Source: an uncultured Gammaproteobacteria bacterium (lineage in GTDB: Bacteria > Patescibacteriota > Microgenomatia > Curtissbacterales > GWA2-41-24). Taken from it: a DNA stretch of 55,775 bases. This document shows positions 5,077 through 45,899 of the stretch, piece by piece (position 1 is the first letter of the stretch; each line of letters begins with the position of its first letter). The stretch lies in NCBI GenBank assembly GCA_964562855.1, contig CAZLVB010000004.1, forward strand, positions 1 through 55,775, in the 5' to 3' direction. The notes beneath the pieces were generated by a model that saw only the letters and a program-made list of their open reading frames with translations, had not been told where the DNA came from and did no database searches. A program made the translations under genes and the position numbers.

Positions 5077-5141
5077 TTTTTGCGAATGAAAAGGGAATTG
5101 GAAAGATAAACCATCCATTTTATAAACTCTACTGCCTTACT

Positions 5142-5165
5142 CCGGAAGAAATTAAAATTGTGGAG
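5142..5165 (+). repeat. Repeat family F2, degenerate copy
   Basis: CCGGAAGAAATTAAAATTGTGGAGG, to be compared with CCCGGGGAAATTGCAATTGTGGAGG at 7130-7157. Confidence 0.55.
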
Positions 5166-5198
5166 GAAAAAAGTTACAAAAAGCTTTTAATATAAACA

Positions 5199-7067: not shown

Positions 7068-7129
7068 TTTAAAAAACACTAGCCACCTTCAATGTGAACT
7101 GTGTTGACACCAAGCCTAATTTGGTCACA

Positions 7130-7157
7130 CGTCCCGGGGAAATTGCAATTGTGGAGG
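7130..7157 (+). repeat. Repeat family F2
   Basis: CGTCCCGGGGAAATTGCAATTGTGGAGG. Related copies lie at 7798-7833 and 9222-9259. Confidence 0.8.
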
Positions 7158-7753: not shown

Positions 7754-7797
7754 AAATACATTATACACATTTCGGTCAATACGGCCTCGCCTCAAAA

Positions 7798-7833
7798 GGA
7801 CGCCAAACGTCCCGGGGAAATTGCAGTTGTGGA
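7798..7833 (+). repeat. Repeat family F2
   Basis: GGACGCCAAACGTCCCGGGGAAATTGCAGTTGTGGA, which aligns with 9222-9259. Confidence 0.8.
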
Positions 7834-8438: not shown

Positions 8439-8500
8439 AGATATTCAAAACCCCAACAAGAACGGTCCTCAACTAGCCTGCGACAACGGATTCGGCAAGC

Positions 8501-8553
8501 CTTCGACCTCGAGCTCAGATCTTCGATTCCGAGATCACTCAGATTCGAGGAAC
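8501..8553. repeat. GC-rich palindromic element, intergenic copy
   Basis: CTTCGACCTCGAGCTCAGATCTTCGATTCCGAGATCACTCAGATTCGAGGAAC matches the reverse complement of 36511-36560 (inside miaB) at roughly 46 of 50 positions. Confidence 0.85.
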
Positions 8554-8621
8554 CGAATCGGCTCACCGCAAGCACTGCCAAAATTGCCACTTTCTTTCAA
8601 AAAGTTCTAATTTTAAATATG

Positions 8622-9150: not shown

Positions 9151-9201
9151 CCTGCCTGCCCATTCGGGTCTGAGCCTCAGGGTCGAAGACCGGCAGGCAG
9201 G
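9151..9201. repeat. Split CCTGCCTGCC / GGCAGGCAGG inverted repeat with nested hairpin
   Basis: The arms at 9151-9160 and 9192-9201 are perfect complements. The 31-nt loop contains CTGAGCCTCAG. The same arms occur fused at 15268-15289 and 37992-38009. Confidence 0.75.
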
Positions 9202-9221
9202 GGCGGGCAGGCACCACAGGA

Positions 9222-9259
9222 GGACGCCAAGCGCCCCGGGGAAATTGTAATTGTGGAGG
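9222..9259 (+). repeat. Repeat family F2
   Basis: GGACGCCAAGCGCCCCGGGGAAATTGTAATTGTGGAGG. Confidence 0.8.
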
Positions 9260-14639: not shown

Positions 14640-15449
14640 ATGATTAATACTTTGCTTGGAACAAAACTAAATATGTCTGGCAGATTTGACCGATTCGGAC
14701 GACGAATTCCGGTTACTATTATCGAGGCTGCGCCCAATATTGTCTTAGCCGTTGGCGATAATAAGGTACAAGTAGCCTCCGGTCAGAAAAAAAAGATTAA
14801 AAAAACAGAAAATGCCTACGTTAAAATTGCCGGGTTCGCTCCTAGGATTGTTAGAGAAATAAAGATCGATGAGCATGCGTTTACTTCCGAACAATCGAAA
14901 AAATTTTCAGCCGGAGATAAAGTTGATGTTTCGGTTTTTGAAGCAGGAGACCTTGTTAAAGTTACCGGGATAACGCGCGGTAAAGGTTTTGCTGGAGTCG
15001 TCAAAAGGTGGGGCTTTGCCGGAGGGCCTAAAACTCACGGGCAGTCAGACAGACATCGGGCACCAGGATCTATTGGCAAAGGAACCACACCCGGCAGAGT
15101 ATTTAAAGGTAAAAAAATGGCTGGTCACATGGGCGCTTCAAAAAAAACCATAAATAATTTAGAAGTTCTAGAGGTAGACAGCAAGAACAACCTGTTAATT
15201 ATCAAAGGTTCAGTCCCCGGCGCCAGAAGCACACTTTTGACAATCACCAAGACAGGCAAAGCAAAAGCCCTGCCTGCCGGCAGGCAGGGATACACGCCGC
15301 CTCCACCACAAAAAGAGTCAGATGATACTACCGAGAAAGAGGCAAAAGAGGGTACTCAGGCTCAAACAAAACATGAAACTAACGTTGAATCAACTGCCAC
15401 TTCAGAAAATGCAAAGTCGAAGGAGGAGAAGAAAAATGACCAAGACTAA
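14640..15449 (+). CDS. rplC: 50S ribosomal protein L3 with an acidic/polar C-terminal tail of about 60 aa
   Basis: Start chosen at MINTLLGTKLNMSGRF (canonical L3 N-terminus). The ORF-track start at 14556 adds non-homologous residues. The tail begins at ALPAGRQG. Confidence 0.9.
   Translation: MINTLLGTKLNMSGRFDRFGRRIPVTIIEAAPNIVLAVGDNKVQVASGQKKKIKKTENAYVKIAGFAPRIVREIKIDEHAFTSEQSKKFSAGDKVDVSVFEAGDLVKVTGITRGKGFAGVVKRWGFAGGPKTHGQSDRHRAPGSIGKGTTPGRVFKGKKMAGHMGASKKTINNLEVLEVDSKNNLLIIKGSVPGARSTLLTITKTGKAKALPAGRQGYTPPPPQKESDDTTEKEAKEGTQAQTKHETNVESTATSENAKSKEEKKNDQD
15268..15289. repeat. Perfect 22-nt palindrome inside the rplC coding sequence
   Basis: CCCTGCCTGCCGGCAGGCAGGG. An 18-nt identical string lies at 37992-38009, and the same arms occur split at 9151-9201. 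Confidence 0.9.
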
Positions 15450-35794: not shown

Positions 35795-37024
35795 ATGAAG
35801 GGGAGTTTTTATATCAAGACATTTGGTTGTCAACAGAATTTGGCAGACAGCCAGCGCATCGCTTCTTACTACGTGGCGCGCGGTTTTAAACCAGCCCGGA
35901 ATTCAAAGTCCGCATCAGAAATTGTTATTAACACCTGCATGGTCCGTCAGTCTGCAGAAGACAAAGTAACTGGACTGGTGAAGAATATTGCCAAATCCGC
36001 AAACGGCACGAAACCCAAGATTGTCATCACCGGCTGTATAGTAGGCATGGCCGTCCGCGATGAGTCAGGAAAATACTTAAGGGCTCTTAAAAAGAGAATG
36101 CCCGAAGTCGACGAATTTCTTCCACTTGAAGAAGTCGGTTTTGATTATCCGGCCCTAAGGAATGATGTAACCCATGCTTGGGTTCCAATATCAAACGGCT
36201 GCAATAACTTTTGCACGTTTTGTGTTGTCCCTTTCACCAGAGGTAGGGAAGTATCTCGACCTTTTGCAGACATCATTGTCGAAATCAAAGACTTGGCAAA
36301 TAAGGGGTGTAAAGAAATTACGCTTTTAGGCCAAAACGTCAATTCATATGGAGCAGATTTGGTAAAAAATGCCAAGGCAGGATACAAGCTGCCGAATGGT
36401 CGAATCGTCAAACCGGTGATGGTCAAACACTTAGGCAGATACAGGATTCCCACACTTTTCCCTTATTTACTCGGGGAAGTTTGTAAGATAGAGGCCCACC
36501 CCGCAAAGTCGAGTTCCTCGAATCTGAGTGATCTCGGAATCAAAGATCTGACTCGACGAAGTGGGGGAATTGAAACCGTTAAATTCATCTCTTCAAACCC
36601 TTGGGATTTCTCAGATGAACTGATTAAAGTCATTGCCAAAAATCCCAGAATTGACAGAAACCTTCATCTGGCTGTCCAATCCGGTGACAATTCAATTCTT
36701 AAAAAAATGAACAGATGGTACACAAGAGAGGAATATCTTGACCTTATAACAAGAATCAGATCTAAAATTCCCAAAGCTCAAATATCAACAGATATAATTG
36801 TGGGATTTCCCGGTGAAACTAATAAACAATTCGAAAATACGGTTAAGCTTGCCGAAGAGGTGAACTTCGCTTATGCCTACGTTTCCAAATACTCTGCCAG
36901 ACCAAATACAGCCGCTACAAAAGCCCTAAACGATAACGTTCCTCACATCGAAAAGGAGCGCCGTTTCCATATTCTAGACAAACTGATCAATCACAAAGGG
37001 AATCTGCGCACAGCAGTGCATTAG
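35795..37024 (+). CDS. miaB: Radical SAM methylthiotransferase (MiaB family, no TRAM domain) carrying an in-frame repeat insertion
   Basis: 409 aa. Contains FGCQQN, GCNNFCTFCVVPFTRG (CxxxCxxC) and SSNPWDF. The extra segment EAHPAKSSSSNLSDLGIKDLTRRSGG is encoded by the repeat at 36494-36570. Confidence 0.85.
   Translation: MKGSFYIKTFGCQQNLADSQRIASYYVARGFKPARNSKSASEIVINTCMVRQSAEDKVTGLVKNIAKSANGTKPKIVITGCIVGMAVRDESGKYLRALKKRMPEVDEFLPLEEVGFDYPALRNDVTHAWVPISNGCNNFCTFCVVPFTRGREVSRPFADIIVEIKDLANKGCKEITLLGQNVNSYGADLVKNAKAGYKLPNGRIVKPVMVKHLGRYRIPTLFPYLLGEVCKIEAHPAKSSSSNLSDLGIKDLTRRSGGIETVKFISSNPWDFSDELIKVIAKNPRIDRNLHLAVQSGDNSILKKMNRWYTREEYLDLITRIRSKIPKAQISTDIIVGFPGETNKQFENTVKLAEEVNFAYAYVSKYSARPNTAATKALNDNVPHIEKERRFHILDKLINHKGNLRTAVH
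36494..36570. repeat. GC-rich palindromic element inserted in-frame in miaB
   Basis: The reverse complement of 36511-36560 matches 8501-8553. The outer arms CCCACCCCGCAAAGTCGAG / CTCGACGAAGTGGGGG are inverted repeats. Length is about 77 nt, equal to about 26 codons. Confidence 0.85.
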
Positions 37025-37961: not shown

Positions 37962-37991
37962 AAACTTCCGAGGACTAAGAGTCCTCGGCCT

Positions 37992-38009
37992 TGCCTGCCG
38001 GCAGGCAGG
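37992..38009. repeat. CTGCC palindrome copy in the intergenic spacer
   Basis: TGCCTGCCGGCAGGCAGG is identical to 15271-15288. It is preceded by the hairpin CCGAGGACTAAGAGTCCTCGG. Confidence 0.85.
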
Positions 38010-38197
38010 TATTCTCCTTCAAGTTTTAGGCCCGCATCCGCCTTTGGCGGAGAGGACCGCATGGCACTGTATACATGAGCGAGTAGATACTTTAGTCCTC
38101 ATAAGTATGTATTCGCTTTCGCATTCATCCCAACGACTTACTCAGGGTGTTCTGCGAGCGACCATAAAAAGTATACCATTAACACCTTAATTAAATA

Positions 38198-45162: not shown

Positions 45163-45170
45163 AAGCTTTT

Positions 45171-45606
45171 GGGAAGATAATAAGCCAGATTCTGTTCTAA
45201 CGATCATCTGTCTCAAAGTGACGCTAAGTTTCACCTTGCCCGCCGATTTGGCGGATGCCCCTACTTGAAGTCTCGTGCAAGCTATTTAAGTCGACTTCGG
45301 TCTGGGTTGCAGCAGGTGGGATTGCCCGTTTCACTTCCGCTCGTCTCTGTTGCTCTCAGATCTTGTCAATTCATGATCTGTTCCAAACTCCACATGCGGA
45401 TAAAGAGTTTAGACACCAGCGCTTGGCCCTCGACAGGCTCAGGCCACCCTGAGTTTAATCGAAGGGTACGCGTCGGAGCTTACACTCCACCACTTGCTTG
45501 CCGCTGTCTGGACTTTCCTCCCCTCGTCGCTTCGCTCCTCTGGGGTAAACCTAAGGGGCTTGCCCTGAGCGAACTTAGTGAGCGAAGGGCGATCGTTCTT
45601 CTTCCC
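45171..45606 (-). ncRNA. rnpB: RNase P RNA, bacterial type A-like
   Basis: The minus strand contains GAGGGGAGGAAAGUCCAGACA (CR-I), GAGAGCAACAGAGA, CAAGUAGGGGCA and AGAUGAUCGUUAGAACAGAAUCUGGCUUAU (CR-V). P1 is GGGAAGA/UCUUCCC and P2 is AACGAUC/GAUCGUU. Confidence 0.9.
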
Positions 45607-45665
45607 AAAAGCAGCTTATTTTATCAAAATAAAGAGTTTATCTCAACCGTAAGACAATTTGACAA

Positions 45666-45899
45666 GTGAATATGATTTGTACTTATATAGAACTAGAGAT
45701 GGCCAAAAAAGCAGTTCTAAAGAAGGTAAAAAATAATCCGCTTTCTCAACTTTTAATTGCGGCTACGGTGGCTATTATTTTAGTTGCCTCCTACCAGGCT
45801 GTTACCCAAAACGATATCACTTCTATTGCACCTACCCAGCTATTTCTAGTAGCAGGAGTCTTAGCAATCCTTGGTCTTTACCTCAAAGACGAAAAGTAA
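45666..45899 (+). CDS. Small membrane protein (two predicted TM helices)
   Basis: 77-aa ORF. The more likely start is the ATG at 45699 (MAKKAVLKK). The hydrophobic stretches are LLIAATVAIILVA and LFLVAGVLAILGL. Confidence 0.45.
   Translation: MNMICTYIELEMAKKAVLKKVKNNPLSQLLIAATVAIILVASYQAVTQNDITSIAPTQLFLVAGVLAILGLYLKDEK

What the first reader, a model, noticed from the sequence alone, without database searches (positions are those of the whole stretch)
36494..36570. Palindromic repeat element inserted in-frame inside the radical SAM enzyme MiaB (RPE-like behaviour)
The reverse complement of 36511-36560 matches the intergenic sequence 8501-8553 at about 46 of 50 positions. The miaB copy is flanked by inverted arms (CCCACCCCGCAAAGTCGAG / CTCGACGAAGTGGGGG) and spans about 77 nt. 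It adds EAHPAKSSSSNLSDLGIKDLTRRSGG, without a stop, between the conserved ...LLGEVCKIE and IETVKFISSNPWDF segments. The Ile-Glu dipeptide is duplicated on both sides. In-frame palindromic elements in protein genes are well known from Rickettsia (RPEs). I am not aware of a described equivalent in CPR-type genomes.
Basis: partly seen in the sequence, partly recalled or inferred. Interest (0 to 1): 0.75.

Follow-up and report, generated by a model that had tools for sequence, protein, structure and literature searches.

The report
Nested hairpin repeat inside MiaB gene
A 72-base in-frame insertion in the tRNA-modifying enzyme MiaB of a Curtissbacteria (CPR) genome is a 33-base hairpin repeat nested in the loop of a 39-base hairpin repeat. 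The 33-base unit belongs to a widespread family, for which I found no prior description, that sits in hairpin loops and, in frame, in many housekeeping genes of these bacteria.

Summary
Window 36513-36551 is the reverse complement of 8515-8553 (38/39; none expected by chance). The miaB segment is a true insertion of 72 nt (36494-36565, 24 aa), absent from 107 of 120 close orthologues.

It is two layers, not one element. A 39-nt GC-rich hairpin occurs alone in 11 orthologues, and a 12th has a 42-nt variant. A discrete 33-nt hairpin unit (36515-36547) sits at the 5' edge of that hairpin's loop. The "Ile-Glu duplication" is native sequence, not a target duplication.

The 33-nt unit has three copies in the window. 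One of them splits a CCTGCCTGCC|GGCAGGCAGG palindrome. Present and absent sites differ by exactly 33 nt, with no target duplication. Copies lie in frame in PGK, enolase, IF-2, RNR, DNA ligase, RsmH and others, in four different reading frames across both orientations.

Between two MiaB genes whose third codon positions are only 43% identical, the insert is 92% identical. It is therefore young, homogenised, or constrained at the DNA level.

Behaviour resembles Rickettsia RPEs and cyanobacterial SDRs, but membership in RPE, REP, MITE, TIGR or Rfam families is not met. The enzyme and mechanism are unknown.

The parts
35795..37024 (+). MiaB/RimO-family radical-SAM methylthiotransferase gene (409 aa; orthologue baseline 383-385 aa)
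   Evidence: ORF. Homologues carry Pfam PF00919+PF04055 and are named MiaB/RimO family, Candidatus Curtissbacteria. Best solved relative is Bacteroides MiaB 7mjv.
36494..36565 (+). Whole in-frame insertion: 72 nt = 24 codons (AHPAKSSSSNLSDLGIKDLTRRSG)
   Evidence: Codon alignment with L004 (no insert), L002/L132/L133 (39 nt), L131 (30 nt) and L001 (72 nt). In the AlphaFold model it lies between helix 222-230 and strand 261-266, with pLDDT <50 for 237-245 and 248-256.
36494..36514 (+). 5' arm of the outer 39-nt hairpin element (GCCCACCCCGCAAAGTCGAGT)
   Evidence: Shared frame GCYYGCCCYNCGARG...CGAAGYGGG in five orthologue loci. The same arms occur in the intergenic composite of L105.
36515..36547 (+). 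Inner 33-nt hairpin unit TCCTCGAATCTGAGTGATCTCGGAATCAAAGAT (boundary ambiguous by 1 nt: 36514-36546)
   Evidence: Exactly this stretch is missing in L002. Covariance model R1 hit 36513-36548, 42.1 bits, E 2.5e-11. A G-to-A change (AAA for GAA) breaks one stem pair relative to the family consensus.
36548..36565 (+). 3' arm of the outer hairpin element (CTGACTCGACGAAGTGGG)
8519..8552 (-). Second copy of the 33-nt unit (consensus GAA form), intergenic between two minus-strand genes
   Evidence: R1 hit 8518-8553, 46.7 bits, E 8e-13. 38/39 match to the miaB copy. ORF context.
8470..8590 (-). Long imperfect hairpin that encloses the second copy, with outer stems different from those in miaB
   Evidence: RNA fold -48.9 kcal/mol, z -2.9.
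9160..9190 (+). Third copy: 31-nt member of the G subfamily (CCATTCGGGTCTGAGCCTCAGGGTCGAAGAC)
   Evidence: R1 hit 9159-9191, 48.7 bits, E 1.8e-13.
9151..9201 (+). Palindrome CCTGCCTGC|CGGCAGGCAGG split by the third copy (nested arrangement like miaB)
   Evidence: Hairpin scan. The same split palindrome carrying the 33-nt unit appears in L026, L087, L015, L014, L062 and L099.
15268..15289 (.). Intact ('empty') copy of the palindrome CCCTGCCTGCCGGCAGGCAGGG, in frame in the L3 tail
   Evidence: (I3).
37990..38010 (.). Intact intergenic copy of the same palindrome

Best explanation
The miaB insert is repeat DNA that the gene tolerates, not an enzyme feature.

Shown:
1. A 39-nt GC-rich hairpin element (frame GCYYGCCCYTCGAAG-tip-CGAAGYGGG) lies between the codons for K/E233 and G258.
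2. In this window and in L001, a discrete 33-nt hairpin unit sits at the 5' edge of that hairpin's loop (GTCGAGT^CTGACTCGAC). The unit has a TCC tail, an 11-bp stem with one purine-purine mismatch, a 4-nt loop and an AGAY tail.
3. Both layers are multiples of three and stop-free in this frame.
4. The 33-nt unit belongs to a family dispersed in Patescibacteria genomes. Filled and empty sites differ by exactly 33 nt and show no target duplication.
5. Copies are often at hairpin-loop edges or palindrome centres, or inside TCGAGT^CTGAG of related elements.
6. About a tenth of copies lie in frame in housekeeping genes.

Inferred:
- The gene is read through, adding 24 residues to a helix-to-strand loop that is predicted to be disordered. 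In a (beta/alpha) barrel such a loop would lie on the face away from the active site; this is general knowledge of the fold, and the loop's position and exposure were not measured on the model.
- The unit is copied into single-stranded or extruded hairpin loops by an unidentified trans-acting activity, and/or it is spread between element copies by gene conversion.
- Only copies that keep frame and land in tolerant loops survive inside genes.
- In miaB, the nesting arose either by a second insertion into a resident hairpin or by conversion from a composite copy such as the one in L105.

The confidence of 0.7 applies to 'nested dispersed-repeat insertion that is read through'. The copying mechanism itself is much less certain.
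For: Insertion and layering:
- Codon alignments show 0-, 30-, 39- and 72-nt states at one codon junction.
- 13 of 120 orthologues have an insert there, and only 2 have the long form.

Discrete unit:
- Deleting the unit in silico and searching the joined 9+9-mers in 978 kb gives a sharp mode at exactly 33 nt. That is 34 hits at two boundary settings one base apart, many being the same copy counted at both, against about 0.3 chance hits expected overall.
- Empty sites include CCGCCAG^CTGGCGG, CCCCGCAG^CTTGCTGCGGGG, CCCGCC^AAAGGCGGG, GCCTGCCTG^CCGGCAGGC and GAAGTCGAG^TCTGACTCG.

Nesting:
- 71% of copies are enclosed by 6 or more outer base pairs, against 48% in cross-joined controls.
- After excision, 31/114 junctions fall in a hairpin loop closed by a stem of 4 or more bp, against 46/340 controls. 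The commonest position is the 5' loop edge.

Family:
- Three copies in the window.
- Six in five GTDB genomes, three of them labelled Patescibacteria or Curtissbacteria.
- None in 2.9 million viral contigs.

In-frame copies:
- Found in PGK, GT4, enolase, a class-II aaRS-like protein, pseudouridine synthase, IF-2, class II RNR, a PurQ-like GATase, ATP-dependent DNA ligase and RsmH, all confirmed by Pfam.
- They occur in four different reading frames across both orientations (LESERPRSRR, SSLSDLGVED, VFDSEVAQTR, GLRLRGRSDSR; the G subfamily gives SGLSPSGSKT). This argues against a selected peptide.

Second gene family with the same two layers:
- PGK has DVEDPEGFHPR versus DVED[LLESERPRSRR]PEGFHPR.

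Youth or homogenisation:
- Window versus L001: the gene is 69% identical at the nucleotide level and 43% at third codon positions.
- The insert is 92% identical (22/24 third positions), and the inner unit is 32/33 identical.
- The flanking 50 codons on each side are only 76% / 53% identical.

Loop location: between helix 222-230 and strand 261-266, with low pLDDT. The alignment to solved MiaB 7mjv breaks exactly there.
Against: - No enzyme or autonomous partner was identified.
- Copy number per genome looks low: 2 strict hits on a 763-kb contig and 3 in this window. Yet 63 copies share an identical 29-mer, which is unusual for a selfish repeat.
- Unit orientation shows no bias relative to local gene orientation (42 vs 36). 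This gives no support to lagging-strand ssDNA transposition of the IS608 type.
- Only about 27% of excised junctions sit in a simple hairpin loop. Most lie in complex clusters of related modules.
- The family was collected with an exact degenerate pattern, so stem conservation and covariation cannot be judged from it.
- Insertion and precise deletion cannot be told apart at any single site.
- Translation of the insert is not shown.
- Full-length orthologue lists are biased against frame-breaking inserts.
- Insert-bearing MiaB genes are scattered on the tree, with different hairpin tips. The history at this site is therefore unresolved.
Confidence: 0.7

Rival explanations
1. One-step origin. 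The 72-nt composite (outer plus inner) arrived in miaB as a single unit. Alternatively, a resident 39-nt hairpin in miaB was converted by homologous recombination with a composite copy elsewhere in the genome, rather than the 33-nt unit inserting into miaB itself.
For: - L105 carries the whole composite (71 of 72 nt, identical outer arms GCTTGCCCCTCGAAG...CGAAGTGGGG) at an unrelated intergenic place.
- The insert is 92% identical between two genes whose synonymous sites are near saturation, while the flanks are not.
- The window's and L001's MiaB are not sisters on the tree.
Against: - The 33-nt unit is demonstrably separable. It occurs without these outer arms in more than 100 other contexts, and the outer hairpin occurs without it in miaB of 11 orthologues.
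- Only one extra composite copy was seen.
- This rival is a variant of the best explanation rather than an alternative to it.
Confidence: 0.35
2. The hairpins are functional cis-elements, such as protein-binding sites, terminator or mRNA-stability hairpins, or a small RNA motif. Their sequence is conserved by selection, and the miaB copy is a by-product or regulates the mRNA.
For: - Sequence conservation across many contigs is extreme (63 identical 29-mers).
- Most copies are intergenic, some at the apex of terminator-like stems with A/T runs, as in L071.
- The TCGAAG and CTGAG boxes recur, as do tandem purine-purine mismatches.
- Copy number per genome is low.
Against: - No Rfam family matches the elements at the gathering threshold or at a relaxed E-value threshold.
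- No T-run follows the window copies.
- Copies occur in both orientations relative to genes and inside coding sequence in four frames.
- The miaB copy has lost a stem pair.
- Presence/absence polymorphism still requires a copying mechanism.
Confidence: 0.12
3. A lineage-specific, protein-level adaptation. The 24 residues form a selected functional loop of CPR MiaB.
For: The insert is in frame, stop-free, and shared by two species.
Against: - 107 of 120 close orthologues lack any insert.
- Insert lengths and tips vary: 10, 13, 14 and 24 aa.
- The same DNA is translated in other frames in other proteins.
- Third codon positions in the insert are more conserved than in the gene, which points to DNA-level rather than peptide-level conservation.
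- The region is predicted to be disordered.
Confidence: 0.04
4. The hairpin is removed at the RNA level (intron-like processing of a stem-loop), so the mature protein lacks it.
For: - The insert is a very stable hairpin (-31.5 kcal/mol).
- From memory, CPR rRNA genes are known for insertions absent from mature rRNA.
Against: - All observed lengths at this site (30, 39, 42, 72 nt) are multiples of three and stop-free, as is every in-gene copy found. That is expected only if the insert is translated, although ascertainment favours such cases.
- No bulge-helix-bulge or group I/II features are present, and there is no Rfam hit.
Confidence: 0.04
5. Assembly artefact, or local de novo hairpin formation by template switching, with no dispersed element involved.
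For: - Repeats can cause mis-joins.
- From memory, template-switch mutation is known to create perfect inverted repeats.
Against: - An independent assembly has the same insert at the same codon (L001).
- The diacylglycerol-kinase neighbour seen upstream of miaB in the orthologous loci corresponds by position to a 123-aa ORF in the window (read by eye).
- The 33-nt sequence recurs in more than 120 unrelated contexts. Local template switching cannot produce that.
Confidence: 0.02

Closest known systems
Rickettsia palindromic elements (RPEs; Ogata et al. 2000, as summarised in PMC10969869)
   Same: - Palindromic selfish repeats found both between genes and in frame inside unrelated housekeeping genes.
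- They are read through as extra peptide segments.
- The host is a reduced-genome, host-dependent bacterium.
   Different: - RPEs are about 150 bp, in ten Rickettsia-specific families, each encoding a conserved peptide.
- Here the unit is 33 nt (72 nt as a composite).
- It occurs in four reading frames giving different peptides.
- It is nested in other hairpins.
- It occurs in Patescibacteria.
- Sequence similarity to RPEs was not tested.
Cyanobacterial small dispersed repeats (SDR1-8; Elhai et al. 2008 Genome Res 18:1484, cited as ref. 43 in PMC3116915; content recalled from memory because the paper is not held)
   Same: - Very small (21-27 nt) hairpin-forming units with presence/absence polymorphism.
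- They are found nested inside copies of themselves and inside a short palindrome (HIP1).
- No transposase is known.
   Different: - A different phylum and a different sequence.
- The unit here is 33 nt.
- In-frame colonisation of conserved protein genes is prominent here.
- An RNA intermediate was proposed for SDRs and is untested here.
REP/BIME/REPIN elements and their RAYT transposases (PMC3116915; PMC3733652)
   Same: - Imperfect palindromes of 20-40 nt.
- They cluster into mosaics with other short motifs.
- REP loops are known targets for insertion by IS elements (PMC1525189).
   Different: - REPs are extragenic, present in hundreds of copies, tagged by GTAG or CGTC at one end, and linked to a RAYT gene.
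- Here neither tetranucleotide is present in the unit.
- Copies occur inside genes.
- Copy number per genome looks low.
- No RAYT was seen, though this was not systematically searched.
Prokaryotic MITEs (PMC10969869)
   Same: Non-autonomous, short, structured, dispersed, and occasionally forming in-frame fusions.
   Different: - MITEs have terminal inverted repeats matching a parent IS and leave target-site duplications.
- Here there is a 0-1 nt junction ambiguity and no TSD.
- At 33 nt the unit is shorter than any MITE I know of (from memory); no parent IS was seen or searched for.
GC-rich palindromic clusters of yeast and fungal mitochondrial genomes (from memory)
   Same: GC-rich hairpins that spread in AT-rich genomes and can sit in frame in coding genes.
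   Different: An organellar, eukaryotic context with unrelated sequences. Not tested here.

Membership tests
Rickettsia palindromic elements (RPE) | Length about 100-150 bp, belonging to one of ten RPE sequence families | tested here: not met
   The unit is 33 nt and the composite is 72 nt. RPE size is from PMC10969869. Sequence comparison with RPE consensus sequences was not possible because none were on hand.
Rickettsia palindromic elements (RPE) | Palindromic repeat inserted in frame in unrelated conserved protein genes as well as between genes | tested here: met
   MiaB plus ten Pfam-confirmed genes in other loci. Most other copies lie in no long ORF.
Rickettsia palindromic elements (RPE) | Each family encodes one conserved peptide (single preferred frame) | tested here: not met
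   Four different frames of the same unit are seen in real proteins.
REP / REPIN (RAYT-associated) | Conserved GTAG or CGTC tetranucleotide at one end of the palindrome (PMC3733652) | tested here: not met
   Neither tetranucleotide occurs in the unit consensus CTCCTCGAGTCTGAGCGACCTCGGAGTCGAAGAC or in its complement (sequences).
REP / REPIN (RAYT-associated) | Strictly extragenic, high copy number, inverted doublets flanking or accompanying a RAYT gene | tested here: not met
   About 10% of copies lie inside genes. There are 3 copies in 55 kb and 2 strict hits on a 763-kb contig. RAYT presence was not systematically tested.
MITE | Terminal inverted repeats plus target-site duplication | tested here: not met
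Filled versus empty sites differ by exactly the unit, with 0-1 nt junction ambiguity.
Cyanobacterial SDR-type mini-elements | Sub-40-nt hairpin unit, precise presence/absence, nesting in palindromes and in copies of itself | tested here: met
   (for example L007 and L034 self-nesting, and the CCTGCCTGCC|GGCAGGCAGG host). This is a behavioural match only.
TIGR arrays (TIGR-Tas) | Tandem units of two alternating 8-12-nt repeats separated by 9-nt variable spacers, 5-15 units, next to a Nop-domain gene (PMC12045711) | tested here: not met
   The window copies are solitary and invariant in sequence, have no variable spacers, and are not tandem. The neighbouring ORFs were not domain-scanned for a Nop domain.
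Any curated RNA family (Rfam 15) | Match to a covariance model | tested here: not met
   There was no hit at gathering threshold in the window apart from one tRNA. Only sub-threshold chance hairpin/miRNA matches appear at the elements with relaxed thresholds.
Intein / intron | Splicing motifs, or removal from the mature product | not testable with these tools
   24 aa is far too short for an intein, and no intron family matched. Removal at the RNA level needs transcript data.

The most novel reading that the evidence does not exclude
A 33-nt hairpin is a genuinely mobile unit, among the smallest mobile DNAs known. It is copied by a still-unknown trans-acting activity into the loops or dyad centres of pre-existing hairpins, including its own relatives. 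It has recently and repeatedly invaded essential genes (MiaB, PGK, enolase, IF-2, RNR, DNA ligase) across Patescibacteria. This would make structure-directed micro-insertion a significant source of protein-length variation in CPR genomes.
Probability: 0.4. Interest if true: 0.85.

Novelty: new variant of a known kind. Interest (0 to 1): 0.7.

Why it matters
CPR/Patescibacteria proteins are known for unexplained small insertions and length variation.

- **Source of variation.** This finding gives a concrete DNA-level source: short hairpin repeats that nest in one another and are read through in housekeeping enzymes.
- **A tractable case.** It offers a very small apparently mobile unit with exact boundaries and a structural target preference. 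That could lead to a new hairpin-directed DNA-insertion activity.
- **Annotation.** It has practical consequences. Spurious ORFs and 'low-complexity' peptides such as LESERPRSRR, SSLSDLGVED, SGLSPSGSKT and [GS]LPAGR in metagenome proteins can be recognised as repeat read-through.

Tried and rejected
1. A peptide search of 5.8 billion proteins with the four stop-free translations of the unit returned nothing, because the word index needs three shared 5-mers. In-frame copies were instead found from DNA loci.
2. Target-site duplication is rejected. The IE..IE pattern is native KI[KE]/GI[QKET].
3. Known RNA families are rejected by Rfam at both thresholds.
4. An intrinsic terminator role for the window copies was considered and judged unlikely. 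No T-run follows either strand of the 8470-8590 hairpin or the miaB copy. The terminator-scan tool was not run.
5. TIGR array is rejected on architecture.
6. A phage origin is not supported. There were 0 hits in the viral contig scan.
7. Strand bias as a signature of ssDNA (IS200/IS605-like) transposition was tested against local gene orientation and found absent (42 vs 36, p=0.57). The proxy is crude.
8. Vertical inheritance of a single ancestral MiaB insert is not supported. Carriers are scattered on the NJ tree, hairpin tips differ, and the insert is far less diverged than the gene.
9. The cross-joined-flank control for outer stems is inflated because flanks share family modules. I therefore report only a roughly 1.5- to 2.4-fold enrichment.
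10. Covariation statistics on the unit were not attempted, because the copies were collected with a pattern that fixes most stem positions.
11. The Elhai 2008 paper and one 2026 preprint could not be read.
Full report
**1. The observation**

Window 36513-36551 (+) is the reverse complement of 8515-8553 at 38 of 39 positions (I1). A 36-nt pattern allowing three mismatches finds only these two sites, with none in 100 dinucleotide shuffles. With gaps, rc(36511-36560) against 8501-8553 gives 47 matches in 55 columns.

The miaB copy lies in a long imperfect hairpin. As RNA it folds at -31.5 kcal/mol on the + strand and -37.3 on the - strand (z -2.3 and -3.8). The intergenic copy lies in a different, longer hairpin of -48.9 kcal/mol.

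The ORF 35795-37024 encodes a 409-aa MiaB/RimO-family radical-SAM methylthiotransferase. Its nearest relatives are from Candidatus Curtissbacteria (Patescibacteria/CPR) and are mostly 383-385 aa long.

**2. It is an insertion, and it has two layers**

In an alignment of 120 close orthologues, 107 have nothing at this site. Twelve have a 10-14-aa insert (for example ARPAKSSLTRRSG, ACPSKSSIAGRSG, ARPSKPWRSG). One (P0003) has the same 24-aa insert as the window.

Codon-level alignment gives these states:

| Locus | Sequence at the site |
|---|---|
| L004 (empty) | AAA ATA AAA \| GGA ATC CAG |
| L131 (30 nt) | GCCCGCCCTTCGAAG TCTTGG CGAAGTGGG |
| L002 (39 nt) | GCTCGCCCTGCGAAG TCGAGTCTGACTCGA CGAAGCGGG |
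| L132 (39 nt) | same frame, different tip CCCCGCATTGCGGGG |
| L133 (39 nt) | same frame, tip TCCAGCATTGCGGGA |
| Window and L001 (72 nt) | the L002 form plus 33 nt after GTCGAGT |

The insertion is therefore 36494-36565 (24 codons). The outer arms are 36494-36514 and 36548-36565, and the inner unit is 36515-36547, with a 1-nt boundary ambiguity.

Insert-free genes read KIK-GIQ, so it is not a target duplication.

An AlphaFold2 model (mean pLDDT 72) puts the insert between helix 222-230 and strand 261-266, with pLDDT below 50. The alignment to solved Bacteroides MiaB (7mjv) breaks at exactly this point and resumes at G-I/V-x-x-(V/I)-(K/R)-F. This is a helix-to-strand loop of the radical-SAM barrel. 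The radical-SAM CxxxCxxC motif (CNNFCTFC) and the invariant N-terminal cysteines are intact.

**3. The 33-nt unit is a dispersed family**

- A 22-mer from the core hit six places in five GTDB species genomes. These included a Curtissbacteria MAG and two 'Patescibacteria group' MAGs. None of the six lay in a convincing gene.
It hit none of 2.9 million viral contigs.
- Among 129 copies the commonest 29-mer is TCGAGTCTGAGCGACCTCGGAGTCGAAGA (63 copies). The window's variant TCGAATCTGAGTGATCTCGGAATCGAAGA occurs 10 times, plus once in the window's own AAAGA form. A 'G' subfamily reads TCGGGTCTGAG..CTCAGGGTCGAAGA.
- Host contigs have 32-58% GC, median 43%.
- The PGK from one such contig has Curtissbacteria and Patescibacteria relatives.
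- A covariance model built from 36 variants finds exactly three copies in the window: 36513-36548 (+), 8518-8553 (-) and 9159-9191 (+). Nothing else scores above noise.

**4. A discrete unit with exact boundaries, often at hairpin apices**

I deleted the unit in silico with all boundary offsets and searched the joined 9+9-mers in the 978 kb held. This gives a sharp mode at exactly 33 nt, with boundaries YTCC...GAAGA or TCC...GAAGAY. There were 34 hits at these two settings, which lie one base apart, so many are the same copy counted at both. About 0.3 chance hits are expected over all queries.

Empty sites recovered include:
- CCGCCAG^CTGGCGG
- CCCCGCAG^CTTGCTGCGGGG
- CCCGCC^AAAGGCGGG
- GCCTGCCTG^CCGGCAGGC
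- GAAGTCGAG^TCTGACTCG (miaB)
- GTCTTCGAC^CCTGAGGCT
- CTCTTCGAG^TCTGAGCGA

In the window, the palindrome CCTGCCTGCCGGCAGGCAGG occurs intact at 15268-15289 and 37990-38010. At 9151-9201 it is split by a 31-nt unit. Six metagenome loci show the same palindrome split by the 33-nt unit.

Outer stems differ from copy to copy. Of all copies, 71% are enclosed by six or more outer pairs, against 48% for cross-joined flanks. That control is inflated by shared modules. After excision, 31 of 114 junctions fall in a hairpin loop closed by four or more pairs, against 46 of 340 controls. The 5' loop edge is the commonest position.

The window's A-variant is usually flanked by TCGRGT^CTGAG, which is the 5' arm of the major variant. 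In L007 and L034 it lies inside another family member, which is self-nesting. The remaining copies sit in clusters of related short modules rich in TCGAAG, CTGAG and stem+TGAGCNNGTCGAA+stem.

**5. In-frame copies in many housekeeping genes**

Roughly a tenth of unique copies lie within long ORFs. Pfam confirms PGK, a GT4 glycosyltransferase, enolase, a class-II aaRS-like protein, an RluA-type pseudouridine synthase, IF-2, class II ribonucleotide reductase, a PurQ-like amidotransferase, ATP-dependent DNA ligase and RsmH. In most of these the profile match runs straight across the insert; in PGK and the PurQ-like protein it is split into separate stretches.

The same DNA is read in four frames across both orientations:
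- LESERPRSRR
- SSLSDLGVED (the MiaB frame)
- VFDSEVAQTR
- GLRLRGRSDSR

The G subfamily gives SGLSPSGSKT. Because 33 nt is 11 codons and five of six frames of the major variant are stop-free (two of the three on the A-variant's + strand carry a TGA stop: one seen, the other by inspection), the unit is unusually compatible with coding sequence.

PGK repeats the MiaB pattern. Five orthologues carry an 11-aa outer insert reading DVEDPEG..PR (DVEDPEGFHPR or DVEDPEGHRPR; three more have DVEDPDGVYSR or DVEDHDEAYFR), and two have DVED[LLESERPRSRR]PEGFHPR. Two more have other 12-aa fillings at the same point.

**6. Age and history at miaB**

Between the window and L001, the MiaB genes are 76% identical in protein and 69% in DNA. 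Third codon positions are only 43% identical. In contrast:
- The 72-nt insert is 92% identical, with 22 of 24 third positions matching.
- The inner unit is 32/33 identical.
- The 50 codons on each side are only 76% / 53% identical.

Insert-bearing orthologues are scattered over a neighbour-joining tree. They carry different hairpin tips within one outer frame. An unrelated intergenic site (L105) carries the entire composite with the same outer arms.

The insert is therefore much younger than the genes, or it is kept uniform at the DNA level. Three histories remain open:
- Repeated insertion at a hot spot.
- Conversion of a resident hairpin by composite copies elsewhere.
- Movement of the composite as a unit.

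The window's copy has a G-to-A change (AAA Lys for GAA Glu) that breaks a stem pair. This is consistent with a copy no longer under element-level constraint.

**7. Mechanism**

Shown:
- A nested, in-frame, stop-free repeat insertion in a helix-to-strand loop predicted to be disordered.
- A discrete 33-nt indel unit without target duplication.
- A preference for hairpin loops, palindrome centres, or its own relatives.
- Wide distribution in Patescibacteria-type contigs.

Inferred:
- The unit is copied by a trans-acting activity that recognises single-stranded or extruded hairpins.
- Gene conversion between copies also contributes.
- Purifying selection leaves only frame-preserving copies in tolerant loops.

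Not supported by a crude test: lagging-strand bias, with unit orientation against local gene orientation at 42:36. No enzyme was identified. The low copy number per genome combined with extreme cross-contig conservation remains unexplained.

**8. Comparison with known systems**

In behaviour this is closest to two systems:
- Rickettsia RPEs, which are in-frame palindromic selfish DNA of about 150 bp in ten families (PMC10969869).
- Cyanobacterial SDRs, which are 21-27-nt nested hairpin units, one living inside the HIP1 palindrome. (Elhai 2008, located via PMC3116915; content from memory.)

It fails the defining features of several families:
- RPE: size, and a single conserved peptide.
- REP/REPIN: GTAG/CGTC tag, extragenic location, high copy number.
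- MITE: target-site duplication (terminal inverted repeats matching a parent IS were not examined).
- TIGR arrays: architecture.

It matches no Rfam family. Four full-text searches found no description of such elements in CPR/Patescibacteria. Absence from the held library is not proof of absence from the literature.

**9. Verdict**

Three corrections apply: the insert is 72 nt, not 77; it is two nested elements; and there is no target duplication.

The finding is a new variant of a known kind, namely selfish hairpin repeats that invade coding sequence. Its unusual features are the tiny discrete unit, the structural target, and the breadth of essential genes affected. Interest 0.7.

Noticed in passing
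window 45165-45608 (-): A divergent bacterial RNase P RNA (Rfam RF00010, 57.5 bits, below the gathering score of 100, E 5.8e-17, full-length model match over 444 nt). It has large insertions: about 50 nt in the P3 loop, and 126 nt where the model has 12. The latter contains 45413-45460, a hairpin carrying the CCTGAGCCTGTCGAGGG module seen beside many 33-nt units elsewhere. The 134-aa ORF 45265-45669 (+) is therefore spurious.
   Followed up: partly
window 15268-15289; 37990-38010: The perfect palindrome CCCTGCCTGCCGGCAGGCAGGG lies in frame in the C-terminal tail of ribosomal protein L3 (..KALPAGRQG..). A second, intergenic copy lies next to another hairpin (37968-37988). MiaB orthologues carry scattered 6-aa [GS]LPAGR inserts at aa 194, probably from the same palindrome, though the DNA was not checked.
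   Followed up: partly
MiaB orthologue alignment, query aa 70, 72, 192, 194: There are at least four further hot spots where scattered orthologues carry short Arg/Pro/Ser/Gly-rich inserts: ALRARG, RGPLGR, KFNPSSTESRRGREVQ, ALRARGSLSESRDSLSR. The one in L001 (aa 70) is encoded by a DNA hairpin, CCTCGGACCAGAAGCCCTCTGGGCCAGAGG.
   Followed up: partly
window 5141-5166, 7112-7157, 7790-7833, 9214-9259: Another small repeat family: hairpin GGACGCCAAACGTCC followed by CGGGGAAATTGCAATTGTGGAGG. It lies within a stretch (about 6.3-10 kb) of short paired ORFs that look like toxin-antitoxin genes (by eye, not domain-scanned). Its function is unknown.
   Followed up: no
L047 6898-8199 (-) and PGK orthologues: This PGK is about 80-90 residues longer than its 332-345-aa relatives, because of several separate inserts. 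One is a VILNDSEGSKK-type segment, which resembles read-through of another common palindromic repeat.
   Followed up: partly
L006 (contig CAZIDK010000001.1, 294,612 bp): A copy of the window's exact core lies on a contig whose record title says 'uncultured Gammaproteobacteria bacterium' (locus GC 36.5%). It could be a mislabelled or misbinned contig, or real spread outside Patescibacteria.
   Followed up: no
L051 704-732 and 957-985: Two copies of the unit lie 253 nt apart with near-identical flanks. This looks like a local tandem duplication of a segment that contains the unit.
   Followed up: no
L034 1449-1600: A nested pair of units (the A-variant inside a major-type arm) begins a few bases after the 3' end of a tRNA gene.
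   Followed up: no
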